Source: Octopus vulgaris
Lineage: Eukaryota
Reading direction: 5' to 3'
Assembly: GCA_951406725.2 (NCBI GenBank)
Contig: OX597823.1
Coordinates: 47,740,001-47,804,000, forward strand
DNA: 64,000 bases
This document shows, one piece after another, positions 9,248 to 64,000 of the stretch. The notes beneath the pieces were generated by a model. That model was given only the letters and a program-made list of their open reading frames with translations. It was not told the origin of the DNA and did not search any database. The translations under genes were made by a program, and so were the position numbers. Positions within the stretch are counted from its first letter, which is position 1. Each line of letters opens with the position of its first letter.

Positions 9248-10345
9248 TTAGGTTGGCAACTAAGTTCCTGCCGTCTTTTTCAATTTAAGCTTTTTTAAAG
9301 GTTTAATAAAAAATAACAACTAATTAATCAATAATGTATTCACCCTTGTTGTTTACAACTGCTTCCCAACATTCAACAAGATATTCAATATCTCTTTGGT
9401 AGAAATCACCTGATTTCAACTCGAAAAATTGATCCAACCAAGCTCTCAATCCTGCATCAGTACTGATTGAAACTGTGCGCATAGCATTTGAAAGAGATCG
9501 AAAGAGGTGGAAATCCGTTGGTGTCAAATCAGGAGAGTACGGTGGATGTGGCAGCACTTCCCAGCCATGCATTTGAATGGCTGCCTTGGTCATATTGGTG
9601 ATATGAGGGTGGGTGCTGTCGTGCAGCAGAAGAACTCCATGCTGCCGATTAGATCTTTTCTCTTCAATAGCCATGTTGAGTTGTTCCATCTGTTGAACAT
9701 AGAGTCCCGCATTGACCATTTGGTTCTGTTCAAGTAATTCATAATGGATAATCCCTTCCCAGTCCCACCATACACACAAAATTGTTTTACGTGGAAGATC
9801 TTCTTTCACGTGCGGTGTTGCTTGTTTACAAGGGCTAAGCCTTTCCTTACACTGCTTCATATTGATGTACAGGCACCATTTTTCATCCCCAGTAATGATT
9901 TGGTAAAGAAATCGTTGCTTGTGTCCATGAGTTGAGCGGCGATGAGCAAGCAAACCAGCAGAGATTGTGGCTTGTTAATTTTTGTTGTTGTCACTTAAAG
10001 CATGTGGAACCCATGTTCCATACTTCTGAACCTTTCCCATCGATTGAAGATGCTTCTCTATAGCAGTGTGGGAGCATTCCATTTTCTCTGCCAGTGCCCT
10101 TGTCATTTGATGAGAATTTTCGGGCAAAAGTTGGTTTAATCACTCTTCATCAAACTCAACTAGACAGCCAGAATGCGATGTGTCTTTCAGGTCAAAATTT
10201 CCATTTTTGAACTTGGCTTACCAATCACAAGTGGTTCTTTTGGCTATGGCACCCTCTCCATACACAGCCCAAATGTTGCGAGCAGCTTTTGTGGCCTTAG
10301 AAACTTGATTAAAAGCAAAAAGGATGTATTGAAAATGTTTATTTT
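9248..10345 (-). mobile_element. mariner (DD34D) transposon, transposase pseudogene; ORF 9324-9953 is the catalytic domain
   Basis: Motifs TGDEKW, HDSTHPH and HPPYSPDLTPTDFHLF, with 34 residues between the second and third D. WVPHAL upstream is cut off by a stop. One TIR ttaggttggcaactaagttcc. Confidence 0.95.
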
Positions 10346-11214: not shown

Positions 11215-11436
11215 TTCTTTTTTTATTTGTTTCAGTCATTTGACTGTGGCCATGCTAGAGCACTGCCTTGTAGGGTTTTAGTCAAAAATATCGACCCCAT
11301 GACTTATTCTTTGTAAGCCTAGTACTTATTCTGTCAGTCTTTTTTGCTGAACCTCTATGTTACAGGGACATAAACACACCAGCATCAGTTGTCAAGTGAT
11401 AGTGGGGAACAACACAGACACTCACACACACATAAA

Positions 11437-11492
<56 letters not shown>

Positions 11493-12343
11493 GATGATAC
11501 AAAAGTTTCACAGGCAATACAGAACCCTGAAGACACTAAGCACCTGCAATGTGAGCTGGACAAAATATACAAGTGGGCTGAAAAGAATAGCATGCAGTTC
11601 AATGCTGAAAAGTTTCAAGCTTTATGCTATCAGCATGCAAAACTGAATGCAATACCCAATGAATACACTGGACCCGGAGGGATTGCAATCCCAGAGGTAC
11701 AATCAGTGCGTGACCTGGGTATTCACATGAGTGATGACGTGACCTTTCATGTACATGTTGCTAAACTGGCAATGAAATGTAGACGGCTGGCCGGATGGAT
11801 TCTTAGAACCTTTAGAACAAGAGAACAAGAAACCATGATGGTCCTCTGGAAGACACTTGTCCTAAGCCACTTTGACTATTGCTCTCAGCTATGGTCACCA
11901 TCCAGTGTCAAGTTGATCACAGAACTTGAGGCGATCCAACGAAGCTACACAAAGAAGATAGCCTCTGTGCAGCATATAAGCTACTGGGAAAGACTCAAGA
12001 GATTAAAGCTCTATTCCCTGGAGCGTAGGCGAGAAAGATATGCCATAATATATATCTGGAAGATCCTGGAAGGACTTGTCCCAAACTTTGGCATCGAGAG
12101 TCACACAAATGCCAGAACCGGGCGCCACTGCGTAGTACCAAGGACTCCAAATTTGCCATCAAGATGTAGGACAAGATACGATAGGAGGTGCAGATGAGGG
12201 CAGCTGCATCAAACTCTCTCATGCACCAAATGGCAGTTGCTAAAAAGCATTCGTGAGGTAAAATCATGTAGCAAACCAAATGGCGGTGCCCCAGCATGGC
12301 CACAGCTCATTAGCTGAAACTGGAAAAATCAAAAATCAAAATC

Positions 12344-17694: not shown

Positions 17695-18034
17695 TGGTAC
17701 TCCATTGGTTACAATGATGAGGATTCCAGTTGATTCAATCATGAAATTAATGTGCAAGTGGATGAGGACTCCTTAGACATGTGTCCTCTTGACGTTGTTC
17801 TCAGGGAGATTCAGCGTGACACAGTGTGTGCAAAGGCTGGCCCTTTGAAATAGATGTACAACAGAAACAGGAAGAAAGCATGAGAAAAAGTTGTGGTGAA
17901 AGAGTACAGCAGGGTTTGCCACCACCCTTGTTGGAGCCTCATGGAGCTTTAGGTGTTTTCACTTAATAAACACTCACAATGGCTGGTCTGGGAATTGAAA
18001 CTGCAATCCTACAACCATAAGTCCACTGCCCTAA

Positions 18035-18037
<3 letters not shown>
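17695..18037 (-). mobile_element. SINE family D, tail type 2
   Basis: Reverse-complement homologue of 47508-47882. Confidence 0.85.
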
Positions 18038-18083
<46 letters not shown>

Positions 18084-18086
<3 letters not shown>

Positions 18087-18212
18087 AGGTGTCATGGCCA
18101 AGTGGTTAGGGCAGTGGACTTATGGTTGTAGGATTGCAGTTTCAATTCCCAGACCAGCCATTGTGAATGTTTATTAAGTGAAAACACCTAAAGCTCCATG
18201 AGGCTCCAACAA
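18084..18212 (+). mobile_element. SINE D head, inverted copy of the adjacent element
   Basis: Near-perfect reverse complement of 17926-18037. Confidence 0.85.
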
Positions 18213-18216
18213 GAAG

Positions 18217-18564
18217 GTCCTTTTTAAACAAGGACAACGTTTCACAGTAAAACACAACTTCACATGCGCATCAGAAAACCTAGTATATGTCTTAACTTGC
18301 TCGGGCTGTAATGAACACTACATAGGCCAAACTAAAAATAGCCTCCGCCAACGCATGACTGTCCACAGATCCCAAATAAAAATACAGGAATACAGAAAAA
18401 TAGCACTTAGTGCACATATTGATACCTGTGCCGCACAACTTCATCCCAATTTTAGAATCTTTCCCCGCTACAAATTTAAAGACAATGCCACTCATACCCA
18501 GCGAATAACCATGGAATCCCACCTTATTAATAAATACAGACCTCTTCTAAACACATCCCCCTAA
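18217..18564 (+). mobile_element. GIY-YIG endonuclease domain of a 5'-truncated Penelope-like element
   Basis: Open frame VLFKQGQRFTVKHNFTCASENLVYVLTCSGCNEHYIGQTKNSLRQRMTVHRSQI...ALSAHIDTC...RITMESHLINKYRPLLN*, extending ORF 18355-18564 upstream. Confidence 0.92.
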
Positions 18565-19427
18565 CACGAACCCACAACAAACACACTTACACCTGCACAC
18601 ACCCTAAACACACTTTTACCCAGATATTAACACCATGACACACGCAAATATATGGTTCCACACATACACATAATTTGATACGGGTGCAAAACATCCAACA
18701 CTATTTTTTGGAAATGACTGTAAATATTGACTTCACACAAACACGTTGCTTCCCGATACAGGCACAAGGCCAGCAGAACTATAAATATTGAAAATTGTAT
18801 CCACACACGCACACATATATACACGTGCGCGCGCCCCAACATACATATAAACACACACACACACACACACGCGCGAGCGCACACATACATACATATAGCT
18901 CTTCCTGTCCTAAACGAACTTACTTATCCAACTCAAATTCAGTCAAGCGGAAAATACACTCCTTAACTACGCTCTAAAAAGCTATTTAAAATATCCACAT
19001 GACGTCTACTGACCAGCCTGAACAATAAGAATTTTCAACAACGCTATTTTCGAAAACTCCATACACCACCCCACCAACATTCATTCTAAACATTCACGTG
19101 ACCTCTCTATTATGACCACATCCACGTGACCTCTTTATTATGACCAATAAGAAATTTTAGGCACAACACTAGCCAAATTTTAACATCTCTGGAGCCTATT
19201 TTCTTACCCCAACACCAACTTCCATTCAAACATTCACGTGACCCCTTTATAATGACCAATCAAAATTGTATTGACCATTGTCCACAAGAAATTTTAGGCG
19301 CGAAACCAAGCAAATCTTAAACAACTCTGGAGCCTCTTTTTTCACATATAAGAGACAACAAACCCAACATAAAGTCAGATAAGAGAAAAAATCTATCAGA
19401 AAGGTCTCTATCTCTCTTAAAAATATA

Positions 19428-19465
19428 TCTTTTGATAAGCATAACAAATGCGCAACCGGTAAAGA
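19428..19465 (+). ncRNA. Minimal type I hammerhead ribozyme-like fold, U3-A8 core, A13C lesion
   Basis: tctt|TTGATAA|gcat-aacaa-atgc|GCAA|ccgg|TA|aaga. Stem I tctt/aaga, stem II gcat/atgc, palindromic stem III accggt. Lies downstream of the GIY-YIG ORF on the same strand. Confidence 0.7.
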
Positions 19466-20687
19466 ACTTTCACCTAATTAAATACACTCTCCCTTACTTA
19501 AATTATTTTGTCAGCATTTTCTTCATTTCCTTTTTTTATATATCACAACTCGTGTTCCACATCACTTTTTTAAATATATATATATTTATATGAGACAGGG
19601 TATCACACTGTTTCCATTCTCCAAATTCACTTGCAAGGCATTAATTGGCCAGGAGCTATAGTTGCAGACACTTGCCTAAGGTGACATGTTTTGCTGCTTG
19701 TTTATCATGCAGTAGGCATCCTCAGGTATCTCAATCCAGTTTTTCTTTTAAGGTTTCTTCCAATTTATTATGTATTTACTGATATTTTATATATCTTTCT
19801 AAGTTGTCTTAAGACTGAACCCTCTCCTTATCATTTTCCTCCGTCCCCTCCGTCCCCTCCGTCCCCTCTATATCACTTTTTCTTTTTGCTTTGCATGAAG
19901 CTTTGGCACTTGCTACCCTCTCTCTCTTCCCTACCTGTCTTTATCTAAGTCATTCTCCACATCTTAGATCTCTGATGCTCTCATATCACTTCTCTCTTTT
20001 GGTTCCCCTTCTCTCTCTCCCCCCTCTCTCTCTCTCTCTCTGCAGCACTCTTTTACTGCAATTCCTTCGCCATTTACTTCCTACAACATAACTTCCTCAT
20101 GCTCTAACAAAGGACAGATGTCCAGAACGTCAGATTCCTGACTGAACTTGCCTGTCAAACTCTTCTATAGACTAAGTGTTGCTGCCAAAGACTCATTGCT
20201 TTGTTTCCTGGATTTTATTCGCCAAAGGACAGAGTCATGTATACCATGCTCTTAACATGCAACTAAAAATGTCAGTTTTACTCTTGTCATCCTCTAAATA
20301 CTTTTACCTATTCATGTCTAGAACGCCACCTATCTGAATTTCCTTTTCCAGCTATGTTTTTCTCACAGGCATTAACATGAAGATGGTCAAAACAAACCAT
20401 AGGAACCTCAATGTTACAAGTCTTCTCTCTGCAATAACTTTCAAAAAGAGAGTCTCTAAAGGAACCTTTGTTTTATCACTTGGCCAACAACAAGTGGTAA
20501 TCAGATGTCTCTCATACTCCCCTACATTTTTTCCATGATTTTGTCAGATGAAAATGAGTGACACTCATGACCATATTTAGGGCCCTTAAGACTAGTGGGG
20601 TGGGGGAATTATTTTCACCTCAGACACCTGAAGCTGAGTGTACTCTGTTAAAAGGCAAATGGTGGCATTAAGCTTGATGACAAATTA

Positions 20688-32606: not shown

Positions 32607-32774
32607 TAGCCTTATAAATTGTTTAATGTACTTTGTAGCATATTATAGGTGCATGATGAAATATGGTATCCCTACAATTAATATATATATGTATATATAT
32701 ATATATACATATATATACATAAGGAAAATATGACAAGGTAGAAAATGCTAAAATAATTTTAGCATGAAGAATAT

Positions 32775-32814
32775 TTAAGTACCAGTTTCAGTCTTTGCAA
32801 CTTATTCAACTTAG
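32775..32814 (-). ncRNA. Decayed hammerhead-like fold in a Penelope-like terminal remnant (~32720-32870)
   Basis: Minus strand: taag|TTGAATA|a-gtt-gcaaa-gac-t|GAAA|ctgg|TA|ctta. Homologous to 37427-37468. Confidence 0.55.
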
Positions 32815-33054
32815 AGTGAAGTCTGAAAAACAATTAAATTGTGAAAAAATTAAATGAAATGTTTTTTAAGATATTTCCATATTTTTCAAATACAAGGGAC
32901 ATTTTCGTTTTTTTTGTCTGTCTCTCTCTCTTTTTTACTCTTGTGAAGGCTTGGTAATAGGTAGTATGTAGTAGCAGTCCTAAAAGAATATTTGATATGG
33001 GTTCTTGGTTTTGACTATTTAAGCAGCAGTAGTAGCCGAGGAAGGGGATGAAAA

Positions 33055-33650
33055 AGAAGATCTTGTTTCACGCATGGTGTTGCTTGTTTACCAAGGCTAA
33101 GCCATTCCTTATGTTGCTTCATATTGATGTACAGGTACCATTTTTTGTTGCCAGTAATGATTCGGTAAAGAAATCATTGCTTGTGTCCATGAGTTGAGCA
33201 GTGACAAGCAAGCAAACTAGCAGAGATTGTGGCTTGTTGATTTTTGTTGTTGTCACTTAAAGTATGCAGAACCCATGTTCCATACTTCTGAACTTTTCCC
33301 ATCGAGTGAAGATGCTTCTCTATAGCAGTGTGGGAGCATTCTATTTTCTCTGCCAGTTCCCTTGTCATTTGATGAAAATTTTCGTGCAAAAGTTGGTTTA
33401 ATCACTCTTCATTGAACTCAACTGGACAACCAGAACAAGGTGTGTCTTAGAGGTCAAAATTTCCATTTATGAACTTGGCATACCAATCACGAGTGGTTCT
33501 TTCAGCTATGGCACCCACTCCATACACAGCAAAAAGAAAGAGATGTCGAAAATGCTTGGTTTTCTTAACTTGACATTCTATTTTAATGATCTGTTTCTTT
33601 AAACCTCTAGTTTCATTATTACAATTAAAAAGCATTTCAGAATCGTTTAT
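33055..33650 (-). mobile_element. mariner N-terminal half (same family as 9248-10345)
   Basis: Collinear with ~9795-10330. TRELAEKIECSHTAIEKHLHSMGKVQKYGTWVLH. Confidence 0.9.
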
Positions 33651-33777
33651 CTTTAAACCAAAAACAAAAAAAACAAAACCAATGTAATTTCCAGACAGCC
33701 AAATTTAGTACAGATTGATCCAGCGGTTTGGCTGTGCATAGAGGAAACCCACACACACAGGATTTTTTTAATATATA

Positions 33778-34221
33778 ACTCTATGTTCAACAGATGGAAC
33801 GACTCAACATGGCTTTTTAAGAGAAAAGACCTAATTGGCAGCATGGAGTTCTTCTGCTGCACAACAACACCTGCCCTCATATCGCCAATATGACCAAGGA
33901 AGCCATTCAAATGCATGGCTGGAAAGTGCTGCCACACCATCTGTACTCTCCTGATTTGGCACCAAGGATTTCCACCTCTTTCGATCTCTTTCAAATGCTA
34001 TGCATGGAGTTTCGTTCAATGCTGATGCAGAATTGAGAGCATGGTTGGATCAATTTTTTGAGTCGAAATTGAGTGATTTCTACTAACGAGGTATTGAAAA
34101 TCTTGTTGAACATTGGGAAGAAGTTGTAAACAACAAGGGTGAATACATTATTGCTTAATTAGTTGTTATTTTTATTAAACCTTTTAAAAAATTTAAAACG
34201 ATGGGAACTTAGTTGCTAACC

Positions 34222-34224
<3 letters not shown>
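33778..34224 (+). mobile_element. mariner C-terminal half with TIR (same family as 9248-10345)
   Basis: Reverse complement of ~9248-9705. Ends ggaacttagttgctaaccc. Confidence 0.9.
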
Positions 34225-34278
<54 letters not shown>

Positions 34279-34797
34279 ACAATGAGGGTCTTTGCAACAG
34301 GTTGCTAGACCACATACCGAAAGTATTAGAAATAGCAGCCAGATTACTGTTATTTCTTTTACTACAAAAATATGTCCCACAAACAACAGTATTTGTAACT
34401 CACTATGGCAAAAAAACGAAGAAAAACAATGAAATCAAACAATGTCTGGTCAATTATGGACGCATGTTTCTGGATTAAAATCAGAGATTCATTTCCTTTA
34501 TCAACATAATATTCCAATAAATAAATCTGAAAATGCTAGAAAAATCTTACCACCATATTCCAAACAAGCAACATCGGACATATAGAAGCCCACTAGCATA
34601 TCCACATTTATATTGACAAGTGAATTCGTATCTCCCTCCAGAGTTTCTCCCACGTGAGTCACAAATAATACAGTGGGGTGTGGTGATCTTTCTGGCTGGG
34701 GAGGCACTGACCAAAATTTTCTGTCACAAATTGACATGTTCATATTATACAGCAATTTTTAAAATAAAAAAACAATCACAATTAAAAATTAACTATC

Positions 34798-35030
34798 TTA
34801 TTTAAATGTTGATTCAATCCATCTCCCTTTCTTGTTGAAATTGTTGATAACATCATTGTAGGAAGTATTGTTCTTAATGCTTTTTAAAATGGCTCTTTCT
34901 ATGCCAGTTAGAGCTAAACTGCTCAGCCTCTCTTGTCCCTGCAAATTTCTTGTATAATTATGAATTCTCCTTAGATATGAAAAGGAACATTCCACTGTAG
35001 CACTAGTTGCTGGTAGTGTTAATATTAATT
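34798..35030 (-). mobile_element. hAT transposase C-terminal dimerisation domain remnant
   Basis: ATVECSFSYLRRIHNYTRNLQGQERLSSLALTGIE matches ERSFS.L.RIK.YLR..M.QERL..LA.L.IE. Confidence 0.85.
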
Positions 35031-35279
35031 CATGAAGGTATTTCTATAATTCTTAAGAGAAGTATTGCTTCCCTTGCTTCCAAGAACCACACTTCTTTTG
35101 GAAAATATATTGATCACTTCTGGCCTTCAAAAGAATCTATTTGTGGTATGCTTGCTGTATCATATAAAAAGCCTACTTTCTATGTTAGTCTGCTTGTGAT
35201 TCTCCTACGCCTCTTAAGTGTCCTTTAGCTTACATTAATTACAAATATGGAGTTTATACCTATTCCTTTTCTGCTTATG

Positions 35280-35470
35280 AGTTCCTATGGCTAGCCAATC
35301 TTAACCTCATCTGTGTTGCCTGTAGGACTATGATGCATAGAAAAGCACTGAGAACTGAACATTGATGAACTCCTACCTTCATGCTAAATATGTCACTGAA
35401 ATCATTGTTGACTTTCACATTATTTCCTGTATCTTTATACTTTTTTAATACAGCTTTTACATGCCATTCA
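35280..35470 (-). mobile_element. RTE RT fragment
   Basis: VKVNNDFSDIFSMKVGVHQCSVLSAFLCIIVLQA resembles VGVHQGSVLSPLLFIIV.EA. Confidence 0.75.
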
Positions 35471-35499
35471 TATATATATTTGGTTTGCAGGTACAAATT

Positions 35500-36310
35500 T
35501 TTCAAGAAACCAAGAGGAAAAAAGTGGATTTGTTATCCCTGCCTTGTTTTGTGATTTATACTTCACAGGAAGCAAGTTTTTGCTGCGAGTTCTTGAAGCA
35601 ACATGTATTAGCATAATGCCTGATGCAAGCAAATGATAGTCTATGAGTTCTTGTGGTTTTGACACTGGGGAAATTTGTGATGTGGTTCTTGTGTAATTTA
35701 TGTATTGATTCCTACTTTTCCTTAGTGGACACAAGTGTTTTGTCTTGAATTGCATGCAAATACAATTCAGTTTCATCAGCATTGTATATTTGATGAACTT
35801 CATAGTTTTCTTCATGGATGATGGGTTGCAGTTTCTATCTGAATTCTTCTGCAATCTTGTTATCTACAGACTTCTGCTCTCCAAGAGTTCAGAGTTGCCT
35901 AATGCCAGTATGATCTTTGAAACTTTGTAGCCAGATGGATGTCATGCTGTAATTGGACTCATATGGTGTTTCACTGGTGTGGATTCGTTGACAGAGACCT
36001 GCTGCTTTCTCTTGTAACATTGGTCCTGATACAGGTATACTCTTTTCACATTGCTGTGAAAACCACAAAACCATGGCCTGGTTGAGATGTTCATCTTTTA
36101 CTGGCTTTATGGATTTTCATTTTAATGCATGGAAAGTGTCGCTTTGGTTGCTAAATTCTTCAATCACCAGTCTTGCTTTCTTGATGTTGGACACTGCTGC
36201 TTTTTCAATGTTGTATTCTTGTGCAATCTTTGATGCCTTTTACCTACGAACCAGACAGTAAAATTTCCCTTTTCTGTTCAATATTGTTTGTTTTTTCTTC
36301 ACAGACATGG
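35500..36310 (-). mobile_element. pogo/Tigger (CENP-B-type) transposase remnant
   Basis: WFSQQCEKSIPVSGPMLQEKA...WLQSFKDHTGIRQL (CENP-B HTH). A YNADET-like motif lies downstream. Frameshifted. Confidence 0.85.
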
Positions 36311-37296
36311 CAATGGCAATAAGTACGATCACTTGCAAAAGATATGTTGCCAGGAAAAGTGTCGTTGAAGAAATGAAGAAAGCAATACTCTTCTCATAAT
36401 CTTAGTCTTTTAGTATGTCAATCACTTCTACATTAAATCATTCTAACACTGTTTCAAATAACCAAGTGAAATCAAACTAGGCCACTGACTAACATGTGGA
36501 TACTTTTTGATAACTGTAAACTCAAGACAAGACCATGGCATTATAAATGTTGATTGGTAACATCTTTGATGTACCACTTTTTACATGTTCTGTATATTTT
36601 ATCAATATTGAACGCTACTCTTTGAGTCCAATTAGCAGCAGTTGACATACACTCACTTTTAATCATTCTAAATGAAAGAGGCAATGGACAAACCAATGTT
36701 ATTTTTGAGTGCCTAATTTATGCACAGTATGCCTCATTAAATATTCATGGAACCTGCAGATCTTGTTCAGATAAACCAAAATTCACATGATTGATGCTTG
36801 CATAACCAAGGTTTAACTGTAATCTGAAGGCACTATCGCTGTTGTCTTTGCTGTCATCATCATCGTCAACATTTAACGTCTGCTTTCCATGCTGGCATGG
36901 GTTGGACAGCTTGAGAGGAACTTGCAAGGGCATGGGATGCACCAAGTTCCATAGTCTGTTTTAGCTTGGCTTCTACAGCTACCTGTCCTTCTTAATGCCA
37001 ACCATTTTACAGATGTACAGGATGCTTATTATGTGGTGCCAGTACCCACACCAATGCTGATATATATATATATATATATATCTTCTTTCATTCTTTTACT
37101 TGTTACAGTCATTTGACAGCAGCCATGCTGGAGTACTGTCTAAAGGGTTATAGTTGAAGAAATTGACCCTAGGGCTTATTCTTTGTAAGCCTAGTACTTC
37201 TTCTATTAGTTTATTTTGCTGAACTACTAAGTTACAGGGTTGTCAAGTGATGGCAGGGGACAAACACAAACACTCACACATGCACATATGTATATG

Positions 37297-37342
<46 letters not shown>

Positions 37343-37426
37343 AGGTTGAAAAGGAACACACAAATTGATATATATGTATGGAAAAAAGTCAAGGTAGAAA
37401 GTGCTAAAATAATTTTATAAAAAACA

Positions 37427-37468
37427 TTTCAGTACCGGTTTCGGTCATTGAGACTTTTTCAACTGTAA
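37427..37468 (-). ncRNA. Minimal type I hammerhead ribozyme-like fold, U3-A8 core
   Basis: Minus strand: ttacag|TTGAAAA|a-gtc-tcaat-gac-c|GAAA|ccgg|TA|ctgaaa. Confidence 0.7.
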
Positions 37469-37689
37469 GTAAAGGAAACAATTAAATTTTAAAAAAAAAA
37501 TTTCAGAAGAAGAAGAAGAAGAAGAAGAAGAAGAAGAAGAAGAAGAAGAAGAAGAAGGAGGAGGAGGAGGAGGAGGATGCATGAGTACTATGATCGTAGT
37601 AGGATGTTAAATGGTCAAGTGCACTGAAAGTGACTTTTTGTGGATGGCAGTAGTGATTGAATTCTTGAGATATCTCTTTTGAATACATT

Positions 37690-38600
37690 GTTCATAATAT
37701 TTTTCTAAAATTTCCTCAAAAAATTTTTCACCGAAAATTTTACCCAAAGATTTTCGAAAATATTCACCGAAAATTTTCACCAACAATTTTTCGAAAATTT
37801 TCACTGAAAATTTTACCCAAAAATCTTTTGAAAATTTTGTGTAAAATTTTCACCAAAAATTTTTCGAAAATTTTATCCAAAAATTTTTCGAAAATTTTAC
37901 ACAAAATTTTTCGGGGAAAATTTTAACCAAAAATATTACGAAAATTTTCCCCGAAAATTTTTCTCGAAAAATTTCCCCAAAAATTTTTCACCGAAAATTT
38001 TTCCCAAAATTTGCGGTGAAAATTTTCGAAAAACTTTTGGGGAAAATTTTCGAAAAATTTTTGGGGAAAACTTTAGGCAAAAATTTTCTAAAAATTTTTG
38101 TTGAAAACTTTGACCTTTCGAAAATTTTGGGGAAAATTTTCAGTGAAAATTTTGGGGAAAATTTTCGGTGAAAATTTTCGAAAAATCTTTGGGAAATATT
38201 ATCGAAAAATTTTTGGGCAAAATTTTTGGTGAAAATTTTCGAAAAATTTTTGGTTAAAACTTTCGAGGAAAAGTTTGGAAAAATTTTTGGGTAAAATTTT
38301 CGAAAAATTTTTGTGTAAATTTTCGGTGAAAATTTTTCAAAAAGTTTTTGGTGAAAATTATCGAAAAATTTTTGTTAAAATTTTCACTGAAAATTTTCGA
38401 AAAATTTTTGGTGAAAACTTTCGGTGAAAAGTTTCGAAAAATTTTTTGTGATTTTGGCACCGATAGCTTTCCATACTTTGTGATTTCGGCACCGCTGACC
38501 TTCCATACTTTTCCCAATTTTTTTCCCAAGAGTTTTTCGAAAAATTTCACCGAAAATTTTCCCCCAAAATTTTTCGAAAATTTTAGCCAAAATTTCCCTC
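37690..38600. repeat. A/T-tract minisatellite of ttttcgaaaa / gaaaattttc units with internal polarity switches
   Basis: Dozens of 10-13 bp self-complementary units, c-rich on the left and g-rich after ~38010. Confidence 0.9.
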
Positions 38601-62999: not shown

Positions 63000-64000
63000 A
63001 TGCGTGCATATTTAGACGTGTTCTGTATTTTGCGATGAAAAAAATTTCTTTCTTTAAACGTTCTTGTAAAGAAATTGTATCTTTCCACTGGTAGAAGGAG
63101 TAAACTGTGAAATTTAGCTTGATGCTACCTGCACATTTCTCTGTGTTCACTTAAAGGAATTTGTCTGTATTGCAAGAACAAGATCTGCTTTTTATGTAGA
63201 GTTGTTCTCCGTCTCAATGTCATACTCATCTGTCCTATATAGTGATGTCCACAACCCAAGCAGGTTATTACATAAATTAAATTCTCAGAGGTACAATTGA
63301 AGTTGGTTTTAATTGTGAACCTCTCTCCTTGTTTGAAAAGGAAATCCGAGCCTTCAAGTAGGTTGGGGCATGTTCCACAGTTTGGGCGTCCACATTTTTT
63401 AACCGTTAGTTTTGTGGTTCTTGTGTAAAGATTTGCATTTGTTAGAAGTCTCTTTAGCGATTTTAGTTGTTTTTTGCATTTGATGAGTTTATGCGTTTTC
63501 AGGATGTTGTTCATTTTTGGGTCTCCAGTTAGTAAAGAAATATTTTGCACAATAGTGTTGCATGTTTCATTGTTTCTAGGTTTGTGGGTTGATATATACA
63601 ATAGTGTTTTGAGATGAGGTGTGGTGTTATGCTTTGTTGTTCTTAGTGTTTTTATGTCTAATTTCTTGGCATGCTAAATTCCATCGTCTATAATAGATGG
63701 TGGATATTGTCAGTTAGTGTTGTTTTGATGTCTTGAAGACGAAGGTCCCAAGTAGTTCTGTCAGATCCTTTTGCCAAATTAAAGGGGATATTCACTTTGA
63801 TGTATTTCAGGTGGTATGAGTTAAAAAGGAGATATTGTTTCGAGTCCGTTGATTTATGATAGATGTTAATTATAATTTGGTTGTTGACTTTTTTGTTATC
63901 ATAATTTCCAAAAATCGGGGCTGTTTTTTGTTGTATTCCATTGTGAATTGAATTGAATGTTACTATTTATATCATTTAGTGTTGATTTGAAGTCCAAAAG
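63000..64000 (-). mobile_element. Penelope-like element (Neptune-type), RT thumb plus GIY-YIG, disrupted; runs off the window
   Basis: ORF 63125-63601: KCGRPNCGTC linker, NCTSENLIYVITCLGCGHHYIGQ. Upstream IQFTMEY...IYHKSTDSKQYLLFNSYH...NIPFNLAK. Confidence 0.93.

What the first reader, a model, noticed from the sequence alone, without database searches (positions are those of the whole stretch)
32775..37468. Two solo terminal remnants carry the same hammerhead variant with compensatory stem changes
37427-37468 (minus) has core UUGAAAA (U3-A8), intact GAAA, ACCGGU stem III and a GUA site, with an A-C mismatch at the base of stem II. Its homologue at 32775-32814 changes stem I from cag/ctg to aag/ctt and keeps pairing, though its core has decayed. 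The 19428 copy uses tctt/aaga and another stem II. Three different stem sequences around one architecture argue for selected structure. Both remnants lie beside (TA)/(TG) tracts without an ORF, like solo Penelope termini or small ribozyme-bearing retroelements.
Basis: partly seen in the sequence, partly recalled or inferred. Interest (0 to 1): 0.72.

Follow-up and report, generated by a model that had tools for sequence, protein, structure and literature searches.

The report
Penelope retrotransposon ends with U3-A8 hammerhead
The two motifs are decayed end-pieces of an abundant, known kind of jumping gene (Penelope-like) whose ends carry a predicted self-cutting RNA; the claimed compensatory change is a rare one-off mutation, and the only unusual point is that a young sister family has fixed a change at a normally invariant core letter, which likely weakens or abolishes cutting.

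Summary
The motifs are real, and both are 3' pseudo-LTR stubs of older Penelope-like (PLE) families (A, B). Relatives carry a GIY-YIG tail upstream. A close active relative (D) has intact RT-endonuclease frames. The U3-A8 minimal hammerhead in PLE ends is published (PMC4209133), and the scan has noted it on other DNA, including this genome.

Selected structure does hold across families: stem I has 103 of 120 Watson-Crick pairs against 43 expected.

The 19428 copy is not solo. It ends a 1.37-kb truncated PLE with a GIY-YIG frame, from a young family (C) with intact full-length copies. No full-length copy starts at the predicted cut site (0 of 17 informative), and one subfamily spread with ~200 nt inserted there. 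I found A13C in no paper searched, but one key paper was unreadable. Cleavage is untested. Verdict: known kind, with a modest natural-mutant twist.

The parts
37337..37700 (-). Family A stub: end of the PLE 3' UTR (with an internal deletion after the TTC tract), pLTR hammerhead and tail, ending in (CA)n. The 5' end is approximate and abuts a 12-nt satellite.
   Evidence: BLAST coverage by relatives; 81% to both pLTRs of full-length L224
37430..37465 (-). Minimal type I hammerhead motif: U3-A8 core, A10.1·C11.1 mismatch (9 of 30 family-A loci; A-U in 21), ACCGGU palindrome, predicted cut after the A at 37433; stem I cag/cug, 3 bp
32720..33060 (-). Family B stub: PLE 3' UTR end, pLTR hammerhead and short tail, ending in (TA)n
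   Evidence: 74% to the L224 pLTRs
32776..32813 (-). Decayed hammerhead motif with private changes against relatives: A8→U, C10.4→U, CCGG→CUGG, position 1.3 A→U (the 'ctt')
18218..19591 (+). 5'-truncated family C PLE: endonuclease end, 3' UTR/pLTR, hammerhead, tail into (TA)n
   Evidence: 85% to full-length L122 over 1379 nt with indels; 97-98% to the closest copies
18202..18564 (+). GIY-YIG endonuclease C-terminal frame (120 aa stop to stop)
   Evidence: PF01541 E 7.7e-7, above cut-off; 96% to the 784-aa RT-EN frame of L122
19428..19465 (+). Hammerhead motif with U3-A8 and family-wide A13→C (GCAA); stem I ucuu/aaga, stem II GCAU/AUGC

Best explanation
The two remnants are 5'-truncated 3' ends (pseudo-LTR plus tail) of older families of a protein-coding Penelope-like retrotransposon, likely pasted into dinucleotide microsatellites by the element's own RT/GIY-YIG protein, and each carries the lineage's U3-A8 minimal hammerhead, which is predicted to cut only weakly as a dimer and has likely decayed without selection since insertion. 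Shown: homology to the pLTRs of intact elements; ORF1 plus a 784-aa RT-EN frame in families C and D; cross-family pairing in stems I and II; neutral decay of copies; fixed C13 in family C. Inferred: TPRT-type insertion primed at the tail; dimer formation through ACCGGU; selection acting only in source elements; uncut RNA as the usual template; relaxed or lost cleavage in family C.
For: Family A/B relatives carry GIY-YIG tails 500-950 nt upstream (L003, L007, L014, L022, L039, L044). Full-length C copies have RVT_1 and GIY-YIG above cut-off, a C-x4-C-x2-C linker and pLTRs 4,471 nt apart. Family D has 784-aa frames and a tandem of three pLTR hammerheads. Stub 37337-37511 is 81% identical to both D pLTRs. 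Relatives end in (TA)n/(CA)n at recurring tail points and often have inverted 5' arms. U3-A8 with GAAACCGGUH and non-A at 10.1: 8,515 matches against 38 in the control. Stem pairing was not in that pattern, yet in its first 30 hits stem I is 103/120 WC against 43.3 expected and stem II 61/90 against 35.2. Seven lineage representatives: 25/28 and 18/21, with 2 and 1 of 5,040 permutations reaching the observed value. D has G10.1-C11.1 where A/B have A-U. Published: U3-A8 in Schistosoma PLEs, about 1,300 mostly single motifs, low dimer activity (PMC4209133); hammerhead mutants do not block PLE insertion in vitro (PMC11167929).
Against: No cleavage or RNA-end data. Representatives were chosen by me after I had seen the families, and the 30 hits fall into only four families, so n is inflated. 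Stem I is only 2-3 bp next to the core in A, B, D and the youngest C subfamily, so even source elements may cut poorly. No full-length family A or B element was found; the link rests on EN/RT fragments and on D. Neptune versus Nematis was not tested against reference proteins. The C3-G8/U3-A8 correlation is imperfect: a C3·A8 family recurs in the listing.
Confidence: 0.88

Rival explanations
1. The remnants are members of a small non-autonomous ribozyme retroelement (retrozyme or SINE-like) family that spreads as short units.
For: The stubs have no ORF and are short; 359-nt tandem hammerhead arrays exist in this genome.
Against: A/B relatives have ragged 5' ends that run into the endonuclease frame. 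None of the 60 A/B loci showed a same-strand second copy within the ±1.5 kb fetched among the 30 A loci printed; listed second matches were inverted. The tandem arrays are a different family (stem II GAGG/CCUC).
Confidence: 0.05
2. These individual copies are under selection as working ribozymes (host-exapted), and the stem changes are compensations made in place.
For: 37427 keeps all core letters; ctt restores a pair in the 32775 copy.
Against: ctt is one substitution at a family A·A mismatch (3 of 94 genome-wide), and the same copy lost A8 and the palindrome. Core and free positions change at similar rates. The folding minimum of 37427 is not the hammerhead as a monomer. 25 of 30 family-A loci also keep a canonical core, so an intact core is expected.
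Confidence: 0.04
3. In family C the C13 change is tolerated or compensatory (C13 facing A17), so the ribozyme still cuts.
For: C13 is fixed in a young family with intact ORFs, while the rest of the core, a G10.1-C11.1 4-bp stem II and the palindrome are kept (29 of 30). An A13-C17 contact in the solved structure is recalled only; I could not read a source.
Against: A13 is in the strict core consensus (PMC3088659). A17 also occurs with A13 in A, B and D, so there is no covariation. Stem I shrinks to 2 bp in the youngest subfamily, and another subfamily spread with ~200 nt inserted at the cut site. No other C13 family among the 100 listed of 215 hits (that pattern excludes families with C at 10.2).
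Confidence: 0.2

Closest known systems
Minimal type I hammerheads in pLTRs of metazoan PLEs, including the U3-A8 variant of Schistosoma mansoni Cercyon (Cervera & de la Pena 2014, PMC4209133; parts 1-2 of 4 read, supplements searched by term, one file not searchable)
   Same: Position in the pLTR, palindromic minimal stem III, short stem I, many single motifs from truncated copies, inverted pairs, U3-A8 core, covariation between consensus families.
   Different: No unpaired base between 9 and 10.1 in A-D; stem II of 4 bp rather than 7-8; A10.1-U11.1 in A/B; GUA site; C13 fixed in family C (not in the parts read).
C-terminal-EN PLEs with a Zn-finger-like linker (Neptune/Nematis; Craig et al. 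2021, PMC8557442, passages read)
   Same: RT, then CX2-5CxxC linker, then GIY-YIG with internal CxxC and two His; partial tandems, inverted 5'-truncated arms, tail, microsatellite targets; an optional ORF1 is mentioned in its Fig. 1 legend.
   Different: Clade not placed by phylogeny with references; ORF1 here has no Pfam match and overlaps the RT frame start.
PAc (Poseidon of Anolis; Frangieh et al. 2024, PMC11167929; part 1 of 4 and passages read)
   Same: Tail ending at two recurring points; copies made from RNA that still holds the hammerhead; no ends at the cut site.
   Different: PAc has a C3-G8 core that cleaves in vitro and overlaps the start codon; here the ORF1 start lies about 140 nt past the cut site.
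Animal non-LTR retrozymes (bioRxiv 10.64898/2026.07.22.740005, part 1 of 5 read; PMC7229834, search listing only)
   Same: Type I hammerhead with palindromic stem III; present in this genome as 359-nt arrays.
   Different: The three window copies are pieces of coding PLEs, not tandem non-coding monomers.

Membership tests
EN+ Penelope-like element | RT plus C-terminal GIY-YIG in one frame | tested here: met
   Family C; family D; A/B only as decayed RT/EN fragments in relatives
EN+ Penelope-like element | Direct pseudo-LTRs from partial tandems, inverted 5' arms, 3' tail | tested here: met
   (C, D); inverted arms in A/B relatives
EN+ Penelope-like element | Hammerhead motif in the pLTR upstream of the ORF | tested here: met
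   13 of 18 C copies that reach ORF1 and 6 of 6 D loci
EN+ Penelope-like element | Retained 5' UTR intron | tested here: inconclusive
   No GT-AG joint in contigs of guessed-RNA runs; contigs are a weak test
Neptune clade | CX2-5CxxC linker before GIY-YIG | tested here: met
   C-x4-C-x2-C in the L121/L122 translations; shared with Nematis
Neptune clade | RT phylogeny with Neptune references | not tested
   No reference proteins fetched; the tree holds only this genome's copies
Minimal type I hammerhead | Core N3 U4 G5 A6 N7 N8 A9 / G12 A13 A14 A15.1 / U16.1 H17 with a 3-8 pair | tested here: met
   37427 copy (U3-A8)
Minimal type I hammerhead | Same core in the 32775 and 19428 copies | tested here: not met
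   32775 has U8 (private); 19428 has C13 (family-wide)
Minimal type I hammerhead | Stems I and II paired and covarying | tested here: met
   Across families; not for the aag/ctt case
Minimal type I hammerhead | Self-cleavage (as a dimer) | not testable with these tools
   Cofolding pairs the palindromes in all 7 sequences tried, which is not activity
Non-LTR retrozyme | Tandem non-coding monomers with one hammerhead each | tested here: not met
   A, B and C continue 5' into the endonuclease frame

The most novel reading that the evidence does not exclude
A young, ORF-intact Penelope family with at least 1,818 copies has fixed C at hammerhead position 13 on top of U3-A8 and still cuts, with C13 facing A17 as a mirror of the usual A13/C17 arrangement (structure recalled, not checked): a new natural core variant. 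If it does not cut, families C and D form a natural knock-out/intact pair for asking whether PLEs need their ribozyme.
Probability: 0.2. Interest if true: 0.55.

Novelty: new member of a known kind. Interest (0 to 1): 0.28.

Why it matters
The two remnants add nothing new: such stubs occur in the thousands here and the U3-A8 variant is published. The useful by-product bears on an open question, whether PLE hammerheads do anything for the element or just ride along (raised in PMC8557442 and PMC11167929). This genome holds two related families with intact ORFs (71% RT-EN identity). One keeps the full core with G10.1-C11.1 (D). The other has fixed A13C, shortened stem I and tolerated an insertion at the cut site (C). 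Comparing their cleavage is a cheap, direct test.

Tried and rejected
Rfam scan: only microsatellite-driven hits among the 150 listed of 339. Compensatory aag/ctt: rejected. The motif parser was out of register and was replaced by alignment. The fourth PLE fragment at 63010-63885 has no hammerhead found downstream. RNA: no RNA holder listed on record. Contigs of guessed-RNA runs cover family C and D stretches but cannot show ends, strand or level, and gave no GT-AG joint, so they are not used as evidence. The idea that UACAG before the core in A/D is a splice acceptor, as in Drosophila virilis Penelope, stays unsupported. Other C13 families: none among 100 listed of 215 hits, control 156. Cleavage footprint: none, but it is also absent in A13 family D, so it does not discriminate. 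ORF1: no Pfam match; Atlas gave gag/PNMA-like leads at 0.85 or less with low recognition, weak. Literature searches for A13C or C13 natural variants and for cephalopod hammerheads found no report. Lunse et al. 2017 on about 150,000 PLE-linked variants and three structure papers were not held, so novelty of A13C and the A13-C17 contact remain open. No covariance model or R-scape run was made; permutation counts were used instead.
Full report
Observation. The window is G000:C10:47740001-47804000 in a 2.8-Gb animal genome; earlier AI notes call it an octopus, which I did not test. A descriptor scan gave 6 hits in the window, including the three named copies. Only 37433-37462 (minus) has no core mismatch and a perfect ACCGGU palindrome; 20 shuffles gave 0-3 hits each and no perfect palindrome. 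The 32775 copy is homologous (77%, E 1.5e-24) and has U8 and ACUGGU. The 19428 copy has GCAA in place of GAAA, which the finding does not mention. Rfam listed no hammerhead among 150 shown of 339 hits.

Each copy belongs to a dispersed family. Own-genome searches gave 1,391, 2,235 and 1,299 first-look candidates, 40 scored each. I examined the best 30 loci of each, window copy included; these are biased towards the window's own letters. Pairwise identity among the 16 best relatives is 95% (A), 92% (B) and 99% (C).

The compensatory claim fails. In family B, 22 of 30 loci read AAG/CTA, 2 AAG/CTG, and only the window's copy AAG/CTT. Genome-wide exact patterns gave 3 CTT against 91 others (by my count of the listing 66 CTA, 24 CTG, 1 CTC). 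So the change from A to B turns a C-G pair into an A·A mismatch, and ctt is one later substitution, in a copy that also lost A8 and its palindrome. A and B share stem II AGUC/GACU. The A·C mismatch at 37427 occurs in 9 of 30 family-A loci. Core positions change no less often than free ones: A 4/319 vs 2/406, B 8/319 vs 11/406, C 2/319 vs 9/406.

What they are. Longer A and B relatives run 5' into a decayed GIY-YIG frame. The 19428 motif lies 870 nt past a GIY-YIG frame at 18202-18564 and ends a truncated element spanning 18218-19591. A protein search scored 150 of 16,994 candidates, and 10 had 784-aa open frames. All 10 were fetched. The copy scanned (L122) has RVT_1 and GIY-YIG above cut-off; the frame has a C-x4-C-x2-C linker, 5 of the 10 show an upstream ORF1 frame (431 aa from Met in L122), and pLTRs lie 4,471 nt apart in L122. 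Family D (stem II GGUC/GACC, same stem I as A) has 784-aa frames in 3 of 5 loci fetched and a tandem of three pLTR hammerheads. The 37427 stub is 81% and the 32775 stub 74% identical to both pLTRs of D copy L224. Relatives end in (TA)n or (CA)n at recurring tail points and often carry inverted 5' arms, as described for PLEs (PMC8557442 passages; PMC11167929 passages).

Selection at lineage level is real. A pattern with only the U3-A8 core, GAAACCGGUH and non-A at 10.1 gave 8,515 matches against 38 in the reversed control. In its first 30 hits (four families), stem I has 103 of 120 Watson-Crick pairs against 43.3 expected across families, and stem II 61 of 90 against 35.2. Seven lineage representatives, chosen by me, gave 25 of 28 and 18 of 21, reached by 2 and 1 of 5,040 permutations. 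D has G10.1-C11.1 where A/B have A-U. A C3 pattern gave 482 against 83; it includes 359-nt tandem arrays with C3-G8 whose U3-A8 sisters share stem II, but also a recurring C3·A8 family. U3-A8 in PLE termini, mostly as single motifs, and low dimer activity are published (PMC4209133, parts 1-2 of 4); U3-A8 as a natural active covariation is in PMC3088659 (section 8).

Family C and position 13. The exact family-C motif with GCAA occurs 1,818 times and with GAAA 0 times. In loci chosen by protein similarity, all 46 motifs read C13 (some loci overlap). Non-A13 outside this context gave 215 hits against 156 in the control, and the 100 listed are scattered mutants (families with C at 10.2 are excluded by that pattern). 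A tree of 14 natural copies groups C with A, B and D at midpoint rooting (branch to C supported at 100, inner nodes 46-64, one very long branch); all other families have A13, so C13 is likely derived. Stem I next to the core is 4 bp in the window's subfamily and 2 bp in the youngest. Six loci carry about 200 nt inserted right behind the predicted cut site, three of them in front of ORF1, so that form was itself copied. A13 belongs to the strict core consensus (PMC3088659 methods passage). Searches found no report of A13C, but Lunse et al. 2017 was not held and I know it only through a review (PMC6765202 passages).

Footprint of cutting. Of 18 family-C copies that reach ORF1, 13 keep the core in front of it, 4 start further downstream or inside the insertion, and 1 is uninformative; none starts at the cut site, although one inverted arm ends within a base of it. 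All 6 D loci also keep the core, so this does not separate C13 from A13; it agrees with uncut RNA being the usual template (PMC11167929). Eight close inverted pairs, picked by me as the tightest of the 100 listed, fold back 1-6 nt upstream of U3; of the 7 wider pairs fetched, 6 have 60-133 nt between cores and 1 was not parsed. These may mark RNA starts; the pattern cannot see pairs that fold at the cut site.

Mechanism. Shown: anatomy, family links, covariation, neutral decay, fixed C13. Inferred: an RNA from a tandem element is reverse-transcribed from the tail at a nick in a microsatellite, and early termination leaves pLTR stubs such as 37337-37700 and 32720-33060. Hammerhead shape was selected in source elements, probably for weak cleavage as a dimer through ACCGGU (cofolding pairs the palindromes in 7 of 7 sequences). 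In family C that constraint has likely relaxed (about 0.55), against tolerated C13 (0.2) or no activity in any recent family (0.25). RNA data gave nothing usable.

Verdict. The finding as stated is a known kind with a partly wrong argument. Earlier notes of this scan reached the same reading on other DNA; none held the word A13C, and a look-up by the family-C sequence found nothing. Interest 0.28, carried mostly by the C/D natural pair.

Noticed in passing
window 63010-63885 (minus): Decayed fragment of a fourth PLE of the same type, about 52% to the family C RT-EN; no hammerhead found downstream.
   Followed up: partly
window 17938-18202: About 265-nt palindrome around (TA)n whose right arm starts with a tRNA-like, SINE-type head (resemblance by eye); it abuts the 5' truncation point of the family C copy.
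   Followed up: no
window 37690-38470: Degenerate 12-nt AAAATTTT satellite that abuts the 5' side of the family A stub.
   Followed up: no
L165-L171 (G000:C1:20002278-20004542): 359-nt tandem arrays with a C3-G8 hammerhead, retrozyme-like, with U3-A8 sister copies sharing stem II (L174, L176).
   Followed up: partly
L105, L107, L114, L206, L207, L211: Family C subfamily with ~200 nt of AT-rich sequence inserted at the predicted cut site; it ends in a CTAAC plus pyrimidine tract plus AG, like an intron end, untested.
   Followed up: partly
L122:959-2251; L224:985-2322: ORF1 upstream of RT-EN in families C and D, 47% identical, no Pfam match, weak gag-like Atlas lead.
   Followed up: partly
G000 hits (e.g. 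C1:22056242): A recurring family with C3·A8 and no clear stem II before GAAACCGGUC.
   Followed up: no
L137-L149, L185-L192 (family F loci among them): PLE family F with a U10.1·U11.1 mismatch at the base of stem II and 6-7 bp stem I.
   Followed up: partly
window 9327-9974 (-), 11436-12194 (+), 35471-35863 (-): Mariner-type transposase, RT and DDE fragments; no host exon among 12 ORFs scanned.
   Followed up: no
L028:514 (+): A C3-G8 minimal hammerhead with ACGU stem III and long stem II, from another family.
   Followed up: no
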